A stretch of DNA of 64,000 nucleotides from an uncultured Rickettsiales bacterium (GTDB taxonomy: Bacteria > Pseudomonadota > Alphaproteobacteria > Rickettsiales > UBA8987), in the NCBI GenBank assembly GCA_964445765.1, contig CAYULD010000004.1:83296-147295 (forward strand), given 5' to 3'. The position numbers were made by a program, and so were the translations under genes. The notes beneath the pieces were generated by a model. The model searched no databases, was not told the DNA's origin, and worked only from the letters and a program-made list of their open reading frames with translations. The stretch's first letter is position 1. The number at the start of each line of letters is the position of its first letter. Below are positions 10,492 through 13,648 of the stretch, piece after piece.

Positions 10492-10857
10492 CTACATCAT
10501 ACATAGTTTATTAACAGCATTTTGCAGAACTTCAGGCTGAAAGGGTTTGATTATCCAGCCAGAAGCTCCGGCTTCTTTTCCTTGTGTTTTTATATCTGAA
10601 TTACCTTCAGTAGATATAACTAATATTGGCGTGAATTGAGAATTTCTTTGTTTTCTAAGCTCTTTTATTAATGTTATGCCATCCATATTCGGCATATTTA
10701 TATCAGTTACTATAATATCAACAACTTGTTCACCCAATATTTTTATAGCCTTAACGCCATCTTGTGCGGTAATACACTCAAAGCCCATTCCATCAAGTGT
10801 TGATTTTATTATCGCCCTTACAGTTGGTGAATCATCAACAATTAAAGCTCTTTTCAT
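10492..10857 (-). CDS. Single-domain CheY-like response-regulator receiver
   Basis: The acidic pocket DD (LIVDDSP), the phospho-acceptor context IIVTDINMPNMDG, the conserved T (VISTEG) and the conserved K (IIKPF) are all present. Confidence 0.85.
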   Translation of the reverse strand: MKRALIVDDSPTVRAIIKSTLDGMGFECITAQDGVKAIKILGEQVVDIIVTDINMPNMDGITLIKELRKQRNSQFTPILVISTEGNSDIKTQGKEAGASGWIIKPFQPEVLQNAVNKLCMM

Positions 10858-10905
10858 AGAAATTAAATTTAAGTTTATATAGCAATAGAATTACAGAAAA
10901 TAAAA

Positions 10906-12756
10906 TTATTTTAATATCTCTGGTGTTAAAGATGATAAGCCGTGCTCAGTTTTATTCCAGTGGTGTGGCTTTCTAACAAGTTCAATTATAGCAAAGTAAG
11001 AGGCTATGCAATGTAATGCCCAATAAAATGGAAAATATAAACAAGATAATAAATCTCCCCACCATTTATTTTTTATAACAATAAATATGCTTAGAAAGAA
11101 ATGAAAAGCTAAACCAAAATATAAATTAAATAAGCAGAAATTTAATAATAATTCTGGCAAGCCATCACTAAAACTTAATGAAATTAATGATGTTAAAATT
11201 GTAAATGGAATTAATAGATAAACAAAAAAGGGTGCAGCAATAAAATAAAAAAGCCCTGCAATACCTTTATAGCCAATATTTTTTTGTAAGATTTTATAAT
11301 TTTTAATATTTACTAAAAATGTTTGCAGATGACCTTTTAGCCATCTTGTTCTTTGTTTTATCCAATTATTAATTGAAATTGGCGCTTCTTCATAAGTGGT
11401 GCTGTTTATAAGTTCAGTTCTCATTCCAGAAACTGCAATTCTAACGCCTAAATCAGCATCTTCAGTTACATTATAGGCATCCCAAGCATATAGAGCTTTT
11501 AAGGTGTTTTTTGGAAAGTGGTTGCTTGTTCCGCCTAAAGGAATTGGAAGCCCAAGTGTTCTAAGACCATATAATAAATATTCAAACCAAGTTGCATATT
11601 CTATAGAAAATAGAGATGATAACAAATTTTCATCTTTATTATAAAAATTAAGCCTTGCTTGAATTGAGGCTAGTTTAGAATCACCTTTTTCAAAATGCAT
11701 TAAGGCCTTTTTAAGCTGATTTGCATCTGGTTGATCTTCCGCGTCATAGATAGTTACAAACTCACCTTTGCAATATTTTAGTGCATAGTTGCAGGCTTTT
11801 GGTTTGGTTTTAGGCAAGGAATGCGGAACTCTAATAATCTGAAAATTTGCCGTTGGCTTTAGAGATTTAATAATATCTATAGTTTCAGTATCATCAATTT
11901 CTACGATGAGTTTTACATCAAGTTTTTCTTGGGGATAATCTAGCTTTTTTATACCTTTTATAAGCTGATTTATAGTGCCTTCCTTCTCCCTAAATAATGG
12001 CACTAAAATTGAATATAGGGGGAAAAAATCAGTATTTTTTTTGTATGAACGAAATTCATTTTCTTCATTTTCTGTGTAAATTTTCTCAAAATTATAACCC
12101 TTATATAAAAAATAAAATTTTGAAAAAATTACACTTAAGAAAAATAAATTTACTGCAAAAATAAAACCATAAAAGAAAATTTTATATTGTAATAAAAATA
12201 TAAATAAACCAAGAGCTATTAAAGATATAACGCCACTTAGACCACTAAAAAAACTTTTCTTACTAGAAAAATTCGGCATATTTTTGCTAACCATTTCTGA
12301 GGCTTCAAGGCTATCTTTTTGTGAAAATCTTTTTTGTAATGTCCATAAAATATCATAAGGGGAGGTTATAAAAATATCGCAATCACCATATTTTTCTCTT
12401 AAATATTCATCTTTTTTTTCATCAACATCTGATGTAGCAATCATCAACCTGCCATCTGCCTGATCAAACGGAATATATTGCCTTTCAATATATTCATTTT
12501 GAAATTCTTCTTCTAAAAGCTCAAAATTTATAGAATATTTATCTAAATCTATAAAAGGGAGTTTTTTTAAGTCTGCTAACTCTTTATAAAACTTAAAAGC
12601 GGAAAGTTTGCCATCTGCTAATAGGATTTCCCCAAGTTTTGCCTTAGTTTTAAGTTGTCTTTCTAGGGCTTCAAGAATATCTTTTTCCTTAACTTGCCCT
12701 TTTTCAATAAGGTGTTCACCAATTTTTTTAGGTGTATTTGAATTTCTATTTTGCAT
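10906..12756 (-). CDS. Membrane-bound processive family-2 glycosyltransferase with an N-terminal T2SSE_N/MshEN domain
   Basis: The N-terminus KIGEHLIEKGQVKEKDILEALERQ...KLGEILLADGKLSAFKFYKEL...LPFIDL fits the tandem MshEN c-di-GMP-binding motif. The GT2 core carries DAED, TED (VTEDADLG) and QRTRW (QxxRW). Multiple TM segments flank the catalytic domain. Confidence 0.85.
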   Translation of the reverse strand: MQNRNSNTPKKIGEHLIEKGQVKEKDILEALERQLKTKAKLGEILLADGKLSAFKFYKELADLKKLPFIDLDKYSINFELLEEEFQNEYIERQYIPFDQADGRLMIATSDVDEKKDEYLREKYGDCDIFITSPYDILWTLQKRFSQKDSLEASEMVSKNMPNFSSKKSFFSGLSGVISLIALGLFIFLLQYKIFFYGFIFAVNLFFLSVIFSKFYFLYKGYNFEKIYTENEENEFRSYKKNTDFFPLYSILVPLFREKEGTINQLIKGIKKLDYPQEKLDVKLIVEIDDTETIDIIKSLKPTANFQIIRVPHSLPKTKPKACNYALKYCKGEFVTIYDAEDQPDANQLKKALMHFEKGDSKLASIQARLNFYNKDENLLSSLFSIEYATWFEYLLYGLRTLGLPIPLGGTSNHFPKNTLKALYAWDAYNVTEDADLGVRIAVSGMRTELINSTTYEEAPISINNWIKQRTRWLKGHLQTFLVNIKNYKILQKNIGYKGIAGLFYFIAAPFFVYLLIPFTILTSLISLSFSDGLPELLLNFCLFNLYFGLAFHFFLSIFIVIKNKWWGDLLSCLYFPFYWALHCIASYFAIIELVRKPHHWNKTEHGLSSLTPEILK

Positions 12757-12814
12757 TATTTATGTAAAAAGTAAGAAATAATTTCTTAACAAAATATCAA
12801 AATAAATAATTAAT

Positions 12815-13648
12815 TCAAAAACTTTTACGAATTGAAAATATTATCATATCACTTTTGCCAACATTTTTACCGGCAATATCTCTTAAAACGCCAAGTGATA
12901 CAAAGCTTTCGCCAAATTTTCTTATAAGGTTAATTTCATTTCTAGTAACATCAAAGCCATATCTAGCGGTGTTGGTAAATTGTGCGTAATCACTAAGTGA
13001 TTTAGTATAAGAAAAGCCTAATTCCACTTGAAAATTCTCGCCATAGTTAAAGCCTATTTTTGAGGTGCTAATTGATTGCACGCCAGCTCTTTCATCTTCA
13101 AAATCTAAGCCATCATAAGGCCGATTTCTAAGCATTGTATCAAGGTTTAGAAAGTAAAAACTTCCGCCAAGCCCATATGAAATTTTACCAGATGTAAAAA
13201 AATCTTTTTTACCAAATTCAGGGCTTTCTCTAGTTGAATAAAACCCCGGAAGCTCAAAGCCAAATTCACTAGAAATTATATGATTATTATATCTTAATAG
13301 GTTAAATCTTGCAAAAAACTCAGTAAAAACCAAGCCATAATTGCTATCAGTAAAATCATCAAGAAAGTTTTTAGCTTGCACCATTTGTAAAGAAGGCGAA
13401 AGCCCAAGTGTTATATCATCAGTAAAACCATATTCTAAATAGGGTTTATATTCATATTTTAGAAAGTCAGATTGCCTTTGCTTATTGCCACTTTTATCAT
13501 AAAATTGGGTGATTTTATTATAGAAAAATGAATGGATTAATTGGGTTTTACCTTCCTGCATATTCCAAGCGGCAGAAAAAGAGGTTTTTGGAGCAAAAAA
13601 TATTAGTAAAATAATTGCGAAATTTAGAATGTAAGATTTGTAAGCCAC
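12815..13648 (-). CDS. Putative outer-membrane beta-barrel protein (277 aa)
   Basis: It has a signal-peptide-like N-terminus (ILNFAIILLIFFAPKTSFSAA) and alternating aromatic/polar strands. The C-terminus ends in F (SIRKSF), as in OMP barrels. GTG start. It lies immediately upstream of the GT2 gene on the same strand. Confidence 0.6.
   Translation of the reverse strand: MAYKSYILNFAIILLIFFAPKTSFSAAWNMQEGKTQLIHSFFYNKITQFYDKSGNKQRQSDFLKYEYKPYLEYGFTDDITLGLSPSLQMVQAKNFLDDFTDSNYGLVFTEFFARFNLLRYNNHIISSEFGFELPGFYSTRESPEFGKKDFFTSGKISYGLGGSFYFLNLDTMLRNRPYDGLDFEDERAGVQSISTSKIGFNYGENFQVELGFSYTKSLSDYAQFTNTARYGFDVTRNEINLIRKFGESFVSLGVLRDIAGKNVGKSDMIIFSIRKSF

What the first reader, a model, noticed from the sequence alone, without database searches (positions are those of the whole stretch)
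10492..13648. Compact three-gene cluster: OM barrel, MshEN-domain processive GT2 synthase and CheY receiver (candidate c-di-GMP-gated exopolysaccharide secretion module)
Three same-strand genes sit with short gaps (58 and 48 nt). The 616-aa protein carries all hallmarks of processive beta-glycan synthases: DAED, TED, QRTRW, and TM helices on both sides of the catalytic domain. Its first ~140 aa form a T2SSE_N/MshEN domain whose tandem motif (KIGEHLIEKGQVKEKDILEALERQ and KLGEILLADGKLSAFKFYKEL) matches the published c-di-GMP-binding consensus. In BcsA this regulatory role is played by a C-terminal PilZ domain. Here a different receptor is fused at the opposite end. The upstream 277-aa protein looks like a small OM beta-barrel that could be the export pore. 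It is far smaller than BcsC, PgaA or AlgE-type systems. The downstream stand-alone receiver has an intact phospho-acceptor pocket. Together this is a minimal synthase-dependent secretion system of unknown polymer. It lies directly downstream of the F0 ATP synthase operon, with no terminator visible between atpF and the barrel gene.
Basis: partly seen in the sequence, partly recalled or inferred. Interest (0 to 1): 0.66.

Follow-up and report, generated by a model that had tools for sequence, protein, structure and literature searches.

The report
Reduced xagAB polysaccharide-export module with CheY
The three genes are real and stay together in relatives, but they are a trimmed-down copy of the already named Xanthomonas xagA/xagB biofilm-polysaccharide system (outer-membrane barrel plus membrane sugar-polymerase with a probable c-di-GMP sensor domain), here joined by a small CheY-type switch protein and attached to the ATP-synthase F0 genes.

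Summary
Observation confirmed. On the minus strand lie a 277-aa gene (13648..12815), a 616-aa gene (12756..10906) and a 121-aa gene (10857..10492). The gaps are 58 and 48 nt, and the cluster starts 23 nt after atpF.

The 616-aa protein is a full-length homologue of Xanthomonas XagB (39% identity over 606 aa). Its order is N-terminal MshEN, two TM helices, GT2 (DAED338, TED431, QRTRW468), then C-terminal TM helices. Its AF2 model (pLDDT 90) best matches hyaluronan, cellulose and chitin synthases.

The 277-aa protein is a signal-peptide-bearing 12-stranded barrel of the XagA family (hhalign 97%). XagA-family genes accompany XagB homologues in 42 of 63 diderm loci and 0 of 23 monoderm loci.

The CheY follows the synthase in 6 of the 10 nearest relatives. 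It is better conserved there than the synthase.

So this is a synthase-dependent glycan export module, but the "new receptor at the opposite end" is the known XagB/Sfz2 architecture. The MshEN-glycosyltransferase fusion was reported in 2016, and NfrB was shown to bind c-di-GMP in 2021.

The motif fits the strict consensus at 14 of 22 positions and the relaxed one at 19 of 22. Binding is plausible but untested.

New here:
- XagA is a small barrel.
- The set is reduced to xagAB plus CheY, without xagC/xagD.
- Linkage to atpIBEF'F is conserved.

The polymer, c-di-GMP binding and the CheY mechanism remain inferred.

The parts
12815..13648 (-). xagA-like gene: 277-aa precursor of a predicted 12-stranded outer-membrane beta-barrel. 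It has a signal peptide, a conserved mature N-terminus 'AAWN..EG' and a C-terminal Phe.
   Evidence: ORF. The GTG start restores a signal peptide that is conserved in homologues; the public gene call is 248 aa from an internal ATG. AF2 gives pLDDT 75, an N-terminal helix and 12 strands. Foldseek best hit is the COG4313 channel 4RL8 (E 4e-11, TM 0.71), followed by FapF, autotransporter barrels and NanC/KdgM. The family has 443 representatives. hhalign against Xanthomonas XagA proteins gives 97.2% probability, E 4e-11 over 237 columns. JGI names those proteins 'protein XagA'.
10906..12756 (-). xagB-like gene: 616-aa inner-membrane GT2 synthase with an N-terminal MshEN domain.
   Evidence: Pfam/NCBIfam. 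39% identity over 606 aa to Xanthomonas XagB, E 8e-144. 7979 homologues of about 600 aa share the architecture, several named 'glycosyltransferase XagB'. AF2 pLDDT 90, pTM 0.88. Foldseek best hits are hyaluronan synthases, BcsA and chitin synthases.
12310..12732 (-). MshEN domain (residues 9-149). The tandem 24-residue motifs with a 5-residue spacer are residues 11-63 (nt 12568-12726).
   Evidence: Gapless alignment to VcMshE 5HTL residues 7-79 and to T. thermophilus PilF c-di-GMP-binding domains. Relaxed-motif mismatches are 3 of 22, against 8-10 for shuffles. NF053729 scores 37.5 bits, cutoff 38.
11302..12024 (-). GT2 catalytic region (residues ~245-485) with DAED338, GGTSNHF408, TED431 and QRTRW468. 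It is flanked by TM segments 168-218 and 497-595.
   Evidence: (these residues are invariant in 20 family members).
10492..10857 (-). Stand-alone CheY-like receiver (121 aa): D8 D9 D52 S82/T83 K104-P105.
   Evidence: Response_reg E 8e-30. No NCBIfam equivalog reaches its cutoff. Orthologues at 64-91% identity lie directly after the synthase gene in L081, L093, L090, L083, L091 and L085.
13672..16070 (-). atpI-atpB-atpE-atpF'-atpF (F0 sector operon) immediately upstream. The proposed transcription unit continues into xagA.
   Evidence: The same order atp(I)BEF'F-barrel-GT occurs in L081, L082, L083, L090, L091 and in L001, 2, 5, 6, 8, 16, 17. atpF and the barrel gene overlap in L082, L083, L090 and L091.
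10040..10420 (.). Cluster of GC-rich hairpins in the 503-nt spacer after the CheY gene. It may mark the 3' end of the unit.
   Evidence: The spacer is absent from the 83% relative L081, where cheY and anmK overlap. A terminator function is inferred only.

Best explanation
The locus is a reduced xagAB-type, synthase-dependent glycan secretion module.

Shown by computation:
- The 616-aa protein belongs to the XagB family.
- Its model has the fold of membrane-integrated processive GT2 synthase-translocases.
- The 277-aa protein belongs to the XagA family and is predicted to be a 12-stranded outer-membrane barrel.
- XagA and XagB genes travel together in diderm bacteria only.
- A CheY orthologue stays next to the synthase gene in this clade.

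Inferred mechanism:
1. XagB polymerises a sugar from a nucleotide-sugar on the cytoplasmic face. DAED binds the donor and metal, TED is the catalytic base, and QRTRW holds the acceptor end.
2. XagB threads the chain through its own TM channel.
3. XagA conducts the chain across the outer membrane.
4. The cytoplasmic N-terminal MshEN domain acts as the on/off sensor, most likely by binding c-di-GMP as in MshE and NfrB.
5. The phosphorylatable CheY supplies a second input. It either docks on the synthase or feeds a phosphorelay that sets c-di-GMP levels.

Because the genes follow atpF with no gap, or an overlap, in a whole alphaproteobacterial clade, expression is probably constitutive with the F0 operon and control is post-translational. 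The polymer is unknown. A beta-linked hexosan is likely. The GH113 (beta-mannanase family) gene in the fuller xag/sfz-type clusters hints at a mannose-containing chain.
For: XagB membership: 39% identity, 606 aa; family size and names; domains.

Synthase fold. Motifs invariant in the family.

XagA membership and barrel.

Phyletic coupling: a XagA-family gene lies within 6 kb on the same strand in 42 of 63 diderm loci and 0 of 23 monoderm loci.

Ten nearest relatives (41-83% identity). The barrel is directly upstream in 7 and one gene away in 1. CheY is directly downstream in 6. All three genes are present in 5. CheY stays even when the downstream genes differ (L083, L091) or the barrel is elsewhere (L085). 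CheY is 64-91% identical where the GT is 49-83%.

Receiver genes recur near XagB homologues in other lineages, in 17 of 63 diderm loci.

MshEN. Both motif glycines (G13, G42) are kept. A Lys at motif position 1 also occurs in the c-di-GMP-binding PilF domain.

Literature:
- xagA and xagB are needed for the extra biofilm of an rpfG (c-di-GMP phosphodiesterase) mutant, and the operon is up-regulated there (PMC3609779).
- MshEN binds c-di-GMP and occurs fused to glycosyltransferases (PMC5013675).
- The MshEN domain of NfrB binds c-di-GMP and is needed for function (PMC8669469).
Against: - No binding, polymer or localisation data exist for this protein, and I found none for XagB itself.
- Position 11 of both motifs is polar (Q21, K50), and Q61 of MshE is Leu here. 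Wang et al. report more than 10-fold loss of affinity for single hydrophobic substitutions (PMC5013675). The NCBIfam motif model falls just below its cutoff.
- Some family members (Devosia type) have lost the motif glycines, so the domain can persist without the canonical site.
- XagC-like, GH113 and BcsB-like partners, common in other lineages, are absent from the window.
- A 12-stranded barrel as a polysaccharide pore has no characterised precedent. Its best structural match (COG4313) is a channel for small hydrophobic molecules.
- No GGDEF, EAL or HD-GYP motif was found by pattern search of the 64 kb, and no histidine kinase among the 39 window proteins scanned.
- CheY is missing in the 63% relative L082.
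Confidence: 0.7

Rival explanations
1. Same enzyme and barrel, but the MshEN domain here no longer senses c-di-GMP. It serves as a dimerisation or docking domain, and the real switch is phospho-CheY binding to it or to the GT domain.
For: The motif deviates at 8 of 22 strict positions, with polar residues at position 11 of both halves. NF053729 scores below its cutoff. Other family members have lost the glycines. CheY is tightly conserved and co-located. REC-MshEN fusions exist in other proteins (PMC5013675). No DGC or PDE signature was found in the window.
Against: Both glycines, the leucine triads and the exact 5-residue spacer are retained. Mismatches (3 of 22 relaxed) are typical for the family and close to those of a proven binder, PilF, with 2. 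K at position 11 of motif 2 is a family-wide feature, not decay. CheY is dispensable in L082, L001 and in the more distant atp-linked loci L002, L005, L006, L008, L016 and L017.
Confidence: 0.25
2. The GT2 does not make a secreted polymer. It makes a periplasmic or membrane-anchored glycan, or a glycolipid (OPG-like glucan, or lipid or LPS-core modification). The barrel is then an unrelated small-molecule channel of the COG4313/PF13557 type.
For: The barrel's best structural match is a hydrophobic-compound channel, and one XagA homologue carries PF13557. A XagB-like gene was once auto-annotated as monoglucosyl-diacylglycerol synthase (PMC4643136). No glycoside hydrolase or periplasmic scaffold gene is present here.
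Against: QRTRW, TED and the HAS/BcsA-like TM architecture are typical of synthase-translocases. The barrel-GT pairing is conserved across phyla and confined to diderms. The xagA and xagB mutants share a biofilm phenotype (PMC3609779). Fuller clusters carry BcsB-like and GH113 genes, as cellulose-type systems do.
Confidence: 0.12
3. The CheY gene is a neighbour by accident of a compact genome and has no functional tie to the synthase.
For: It is absent in L082, L001 and in the more distant atp-linked loci. It shows no family-specific features beyond an ordinary receiver.
Against: It remains directly downstream of the synthase gene in six relatives, although the next genes differ (anmK, a helicase region, ahpC) and although the barrel is elsewhere in L085. 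Unrelated receiver genes sit next to XagB homologues in Parvibaculum, Rhodobiaceae, Ignavibacterium and sphingomonad loci.
Confidence: 0.15

Closest known systems
XagABCD of Xanthomonas (xagA, xagB; KEGG/JGI 'protein XagA', 'glycosyltransferase XagB')
   Same: The GT is 39% identical over its full length, with the same MshEN-TM-GT2-TM order. The barrel belongs to the XagA family. The gene order is xagA then xagB. In Xanthomonas both genes are needed for biofilm when c-di-GMP degradation is lost (PMC3609779).
   Different: There is no XagC-like or XagD/GH113 gene. A CheY gene follows instead. The pair is appended to atpIBEF'F. The barrel is shorter (277 vs about 340 aa). Pairwise barrel similarity is marginal and only the profiles link them.
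Sfz/Sfb stalk-formation clusters of iron-oxidising Zeta- and Betaproteobacteria (Sfz1 BcsB-like, Sfz2 XagB-like, Sfz3, Sfz4, Sfz5)
   Same: Sfz2 has the same N-terminal T2SS-E/MshEN + GT2 architecture (PMC8250860; L018 and L033). The fifth gene of these clusters hits the XagA-barrel profile.
   Different: Those clusters add BcsB-like, XagC-like and glycoside-hydrolase genes, and place the barrel downstream. None of these is present here.
NfrB-NfrA-YbcH of E. coli (c-di-GMP-activated ManNAc-polymer synthase, phage N4 receptor glycan)
   Same: It is a GT2 synthase regulated through an MshEN domain and paired with an outer-membrane protein. It works as a synthase-dependent system (PMC8669469, PMC8669472).
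   Different: The domain order is reversed (GT2 N-terminal, MshEN C-terminal). Sequence similarity is only local (E 1e-4 around TED-QxxRW; MshEN part E 0.2). NfrA is a 990-aa TPR + large barrel protein and YbcH is a periplasmic partner.
BcsA-BcsB-BcsC cellulose synthase and PgaCD-PgaA
   Same: Same catalytic fold and motif set (D,D,D,QxxRW). Same logic of c-di-GMP-gated polymerisation coupled to translocation.
   Different: The sensor is MshEN at the N-terminus, not a C-terminal PilZ (BcsA) or a PgaC-PgaD interface. There are fewer TM helices. No BcsB, TPR scaffold or 16-18-stranded porin is present.
COG4313 / PF13557 outer-membrane channels (Pput2725, PDB 4RL8)
   Same: A 12-stranded barrel of similar size, and the best structural match (TM 0.71). 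One XagA homologue carries PF13557.
   Different: The window protein does not reach any Pfam threshold. The known member is thought to carry small hydrophobic molecules, not polysaccharide.

Membership tests
XagB family (MshEN-GT2 synthase) | Full-length homology to Xanthomonas XagB | tested here: met
   39% identity over 606 aa, E 8e-144. Homologues are named XagB by JGI.
XagB family (MshEN-GT2 synthase) | Domain order: N-terminal MshEN/T2SSE_N, 2 TM, GT2 with DxD/TED/QxxRW, C-terminal TM bundle | tested here: met
XagB family (MshEN-GT2 synthase) | Encoded next to xagA | tested here: met
xagABCD operon | Presence of xagC and xagD partners | tested here: not met
   No XagC-like, GH113 or BcsB-like ORF anywhere in the window. 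These are also absent in the nearest relatives.
xagABCD operon | Required for biofilm or extracellular polysaccharide | not testable with these tools
   Known only for Xanthomonas (PMC3609779).
XagA family outer-membrane barrel | Profile-level homology to Xanthomonas XagA | tested here: met
   hhalign 97.2%, E 4e-11, 237 columns. The family HMM hits the ORF upstream of xagB in L010 and L012 at E 1e-45 to 1e-47. Pairwise BLAST is only E 3e-4.
XagA family outer-membrane barrel | Signal peptide, all-beta barrel, C-terminal aromatic residue | tested here: met
   AF2 model with 12 strands, pLDDT 75. Barrel matches in the PDB. The sequence ends ...IRKSF. These are predictions only.
MshEN c-di-GMP receptor domain | Two 24-residue motifs separated by 5 residues, with Gly at position 3 of each | tested here: met
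   Residues 11-34, spacer LKTKA, residues 40-63. G13 and G42 are present.
MshEN c-di-GMP receptor domain | Full match to the consensus RLGxxhhxxGhhxxxxLxxxLxxQ in both halves | tested here: inconclusive
   14 of 22 strict and 19 of 22 relaxed positions match. Polar residues occupy position 11 of both halves. NF053729 scores 37.5 bits, cutoff 38.
MshEN c-di-GMP receptor domain | Binds c-di-GMP | not testable with these tools
   Needs DRaCALA, ITC or MST.
NfrB family | GT2 N-terminal with C-terminal MshEN; partners NfrA and YbcH | tested here: not met
   Reversed order and only local similarity. NCBIfam NfrB scores 33 bits against a cutoff of 1170.
BcsA cellulose synthase | C-terminal PilZ domain; BcsB partner; score above the CelA/BcsA model cutoff | tested here: not met
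   No PilZ hit. CelA scores 54 bits against 699. No BcsB-like ORF.
PgaC/IcaA PNAG synthase | Score above the TIGR03937 cutoff | tested here: not met
   70.5 bits against 422.
Single-domain CheY-like response regulator | Receiver fold with the acidic pair, phospho-acceptor Asp, Thr/Ser and Lys | tested here: met
   Response_reg E 8e-30. D8, D9, D52, K104 and P105 are invariant or nearly so in the alignment.
Chemotaxis CheY proper | Score above the CheY equivalog cutoff; che operon context | tested here: not met
   80.5 bits against 189. No che genes among the 39 window proteins scanned.

The most novel reading that the evidence does not exclude
In a Rickettsiales-like alphaproteobacterial clade, trans-envelope polysaccharide secretion has been pared down to two proteins: a XagB synthase-translocase and a 12-stranded XagA pore. 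That would be the smallest synthase-dependent system described. It is transcribed as the tail of the F0 ATP-synthase operon and gated post-translationally by two inputs: c-di-GMP at the MshEN domain and a dedicated phospho-CheY.
Probability: 0.3. Interest if true: 0.6.

Novelty: new variant of a known kind. Interest (0 to 1): 0.4.

Why it matters
XagB-type synthases are very widespread. The word-index search returned 7979 homologues at its ceiling of 8000 scored candidates, spread over many phyla. Yet their polymer, their regulation and the role of XagA are uncharacterised.

Three points give concrete handles on the family:
- XagA is a small outer-membrane barrel confined to diderm hosts.
- The 'unknown' Sfz5 of iron-oxidiser stalk clusters belongs to the same family.
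- A two-gene core suffices in reduced genomes.

The N-terminal MshEN domain would answer the 2015 prediction that the xag operon encodes its own c-di-GMP receptor (PMC4624772). The conserved CheY partner and the linkage to the F0 operon are unexplained, testable regulatory features. None of this overturns current understanding; it extends a known system.

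Tried and rejected
- **NfrB membership:** rejected. Domain order is reversed and only local similarity exists.
- **BcsA, PgaC, NodC and MdoH equivalogs:** all far below their cutoffs.
- **Pfam and NCBIfam on the barrel:** no hit. The word-index search found only 4 relatives. The exhaustive profile search was needed to reveal the family.
- **Metagenome scan with the single protein:** only 2 distant loci.
- **Pattern search for GGDEF, EAL and HD-GYP signature motifs in all six frames of the window:** nothing. Pfam on 30 further window proteins gave only housekeeping genes. The rest of the genome was out of reach.
- **Promoter and terminator scan:** counts were no different from shuffles, so it is uninformative.
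- **Sphingomonas 'promonan' paper:** it describes a Wzy pathway and is unrelated.
- **Rhizobium GmsA glucomannan synthase:** considered as a possible characterised relative because of the GH113 link. The papers held give no sequence or domain data, so it was not tested.

Full report
**1. What is in the sequence**

The window is about 31% G+C. The three ORFs of the finding lie on the minus strand:
- a 277-aa ORF at 13648..12815 (GTG start);
- a 616-aa ORF at 12756..10906;
- a 121-aa ORF at 10857..10492.

The spacers are 58 and 48 nt. Directly upstream on the same strand are atpI (16070..15807), atpB, atpE, atpF' and atpF (ending at 13672). This leaves 23 nt before the GTG of the first gene. Downstream, after a 503-nt spacer, comes anmK (9988..8846).

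The rest of the window holds housekeeping genes: EF-G, NusA, PolA, DnaK, LptD/F/G, MurJ, SurA and cbb3 oxidase. The best database matches are MAGs labelled 'Rickettsiales bacterium'.

**2. The 616-aa protein**

Pfam finds MshEN (res 66-149) and GT2 models (res 248-553). NCBIfam adds the 'c-di-GMP_motif, MshE-related' domain on residues 11-58, at 37.5 bits against a cutoff of 38. It also gives weak matches to the MshEN half of NfrB.

DAED (338), GGTSNHF (408), TED (431) and QRTRW (468) are present. They are invariant in an alignment of 20 family members. Hydrophobic segments lie at 168-218 and 497-563.

The AF2 model is confident (pLDDT 90, pTM 0.88). Its best matches among solved structures are membrane-integrated processive synthases: Xenopus and Chlorella-virus hyaluronan synthases (TM about 0.55-0.60 on the target), BcsA and chitin synthases. 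By sequence, E. coli and Rhodobacter BcsA are the nearest solved relatives.

The protein is not an orphan. The homology search returned 7979 proteins at its ceiling of 8000 scored candidates. Nearly all of those listed are about 600-650 aa with the same architecture, and several are named 'glycosyltransferase XagB'. Against the Xanthomonas protein it is 39% identical over 606 residues. Against E. coli NfrB only a local TED-QxxRW match is seen, and the domain order is reversed.

**3. The MshEN motif**

Residues 9-81 align without gaps to V. cholerae MshE (5HTL) and to the c-di-GMP-binding domains of T. thermophilus PilF. The two 24-residue motifs (11-34 and 40-63) are separated by exactly five residues. 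Both motif glycines are kept.

Deviations from the strict consensus:
- Lys for Arg at position 1 of both halves; Lys also occurs in PilF.
- Ile for Leu at positions 2 and 17 of motif 1, and Phe for Leu at position 17 of motif 2.
- Gln (motif 1) and Lys (motif 2) at hydrophobic position 11.
- Leu for the final Gln of motif 2.

This gives 14 of 22 strict and 19 of 22 relaxed positions (relaxed motif from PMC5013675). Three mismatches is the family norm. The distribution over 120 homologues peaks at 2-3, and shuffled N-termini give 8-10. The Lys at position 11 of motif 2 is a family-wide trait.

Binding is therefore plausible but not assured. Single hydrophobic substitutions cost MshE more than 10-fold in affinity (PMC5013675). 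Some family members have lost the glycines altogether.

**4. The 277-aa protein**

No curated family matches it. Homologues conserve an N-terminal signal peptide and the motif AWN..EG just after it. This supports the GTG start rather than the internal ATG used in the public gene call (248 aa).

The AF2 model (pLDDT 75) shows a signal helix and 12 beta strands. Foldseek places it among 12-stranded outer-membrane barrels. The best is the COG4313 channel 4RL8 (E 4e-11, TM 0.71), followed by FapF, autotransporter barrels and NanC/KdgM.

An exhaustive profile search found 443 cluster representatives of about 270-290 aa. A profile built from them hits the ORF directly upstream of xagB in two Xanthomonas genomes (E 1e-45 to 1e-47). 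Relatives of that ORF are named 'protein XagA' by JGI, and one carries PF13557, the COG4313 family. Profile-profile comparison gives 97.2% probability over 237 columns. The barrel is therefore XagA.

**5. Synteny**

*Species-representative genomes plus look-ups (86 loci).* A XagA-family gene lies within 6 kb on the same strand as the XagB homologue in 42 of 63 loci from diderm taxa. It does so in none of 23 loci from Actinomycetota or Chloroflexota. The diderm/monoderm split is my reading of the record titles. This pattern is what an outer-membrane component of the same pathway would show.

*Other lineages.* These add a BcsB-like protein upstream, a roughly 500-aa XagC-like protein and a GH113 hydrolase. 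None of these is present in the window.

*Ten nearest relatives (41-83% identity).*
- The barrel is directly upstream in seven and one gene away in an eighth.
- A 121-122-aa receiver is directly downstream in six.
- All three genes occur together in five: L081, L093, L083, L090 and L091.

*The receiver.* It is 64-91% identical to the window's, where the synthases are 49-83% identical. It stays with the synthase although the genes after it differ. Unrelated receiver proteins also sit next to XagB homologues in Parvibaculum and Rhodobiaceae, in Ignavibacterium, and (as a 336-aa REC plus unknown domain) in sphingomonad-type clusters.

*The atp linkage.* atpB-F'-F directly precede barrel-GT in at least 13 distinct loci, down to 37-40% synthase identity. 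atpF overlaps the barrel gene in four of them.

**6. Interpretation**

The locus is a reduced xagAB module. The shown and inferred steps of the mechanism, and the polymer hint from GH113, are set out under the best explanation.

In brief, the catalytic and translocation steps follow from the fold and motifs shared with BcsA and HAS. Export through XagA is inferred from co-inheritance and predicted location. Regulation by c-di-GMP is inferred from the MshEN domain, from NfrB (PMC8669469) and from the behaviour of xag genes in c-di-GMP-phosphodiesterase mutants (PMC3609779).

The role of CheY is inferred from conserved adjacency alone. Likewise, co-transcription with F0 rests only on spacing and conservation. 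The terminator scan is uninformative. GC-rich hairpins after cheY may mark the 3' end.

**7.

However, the architecture is not a new solution. It is XagB/Sfz2, described with an N-terminal T2SS-E domain in 2021 (PMC8250860) and covered by the 2016 statement that MshEN is fused to glycosyltransferases (PMC5013675).

What I found no report of in the papers searched:
- the identity and fold of XagA;
- its presence as 'Sfz5';
- the xagAB-only core with a dedicated CheY;
- the conserved attachment to the F0 operon.

I rate it a new variant of a known kind, of moderate interest.

Noticed in passing
window 10040-10420 (spacer between cheY stop 10492 and anmK start 9988): A cluster of GC-rich near-perfect hairpins in AT-rich DNA. 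Examples are CCCTCTCCCCTT-ATAA-AAGGGGAGAGGG at 10207-10234, plus others at 10319-10345 and 10088-10119. The whole 503-nt spacer is missing in the 83% relative L081, where cheY and anmK overlap. It could be a terminator or a small inserted palindromic element.
   Followed up: partly
L018 12409-13341; L021 12419-13249; L024 13410-14252; L031 12368-13183: The fifth gene of the zeta- and gammaproteobacterial sfz-type stalk/EPS clusters hits the XagA-barrel family profile. In the literature this gene is Sfz5, function unknown, and xagA is said to be absent from these organisms.
   Followed up: partly
L001, L002, L003, L005, L006, L008, L016, L017, L081-L084, L090, L091: The F0 genes atpB-(E)-F'-F directly precede xagA-xagB in many alphaproteobacterial genomes, often with atpF overlapping xagA. 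Why an EPS module should be tied to the F0 operon is unexplained.
   Followed up: partly
L067 5189-5749; L076 9918-10487: Receiver proteins encoded immediately after XagB homologues carry a C-terminal Arg-rich tail (..GPDRRRR(R/H)DVEY..). This is reminiscent of c-di-GMP-binding extensions of CheY-like proteins. Not tested.
   Followed up: no
L014, L015, L025, L029, L030, L041, L073 (about 11.2-12.4 kb in each locus): Sphingomonad-type clusters run BcsB-like, XagB, XagC-like, a 330-aa receiver with an unknown C-terminal domain (no Pfam hit), then the XagA barrel.
   Followed up: partly
window 12815-13648: The public gene call for the barrel (P0121, 248 aa) starts at an internal ATG and lacks the signal peptide. 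The GTG at 13648 gives the conserved signal peptide.
   Followed up: yes
window 16088-16771: An endonuclease/exonuclease/phosphatase-family gene sits between the dsbA-like gene (16808-17584) and atpI. In relatives L081, L083, L090 and L091 the dsbA-like gene directly precedes atpI, so this looks like an insertion.
   Followed up: partly
window 20337-24890, 29442-32336, 2027-3484, 7257-8843, 6625-7215: Five sizeable ORFs (1517, 964, 485, 528 and 196 aa) have no Pfam or NCBIfam match. The 964-aa ORF lies next to a 2-oxoacid dehydrogenase E2 gene but is not an E1.
   Followed up: partly
window 47054-49829: A single 595-aa ORF fuses HpnC-like (res 38-300) and HpnD-like (res 320-593) squalene-synthesis enzymes. 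A polyprenyl synthetase gene follows.
   Followed up: partly
P0057 (Beggiatoa alba, 926 aa): A XagB homologue with three tandem MshEN domains ahead of the synthase.
   Followed up: no
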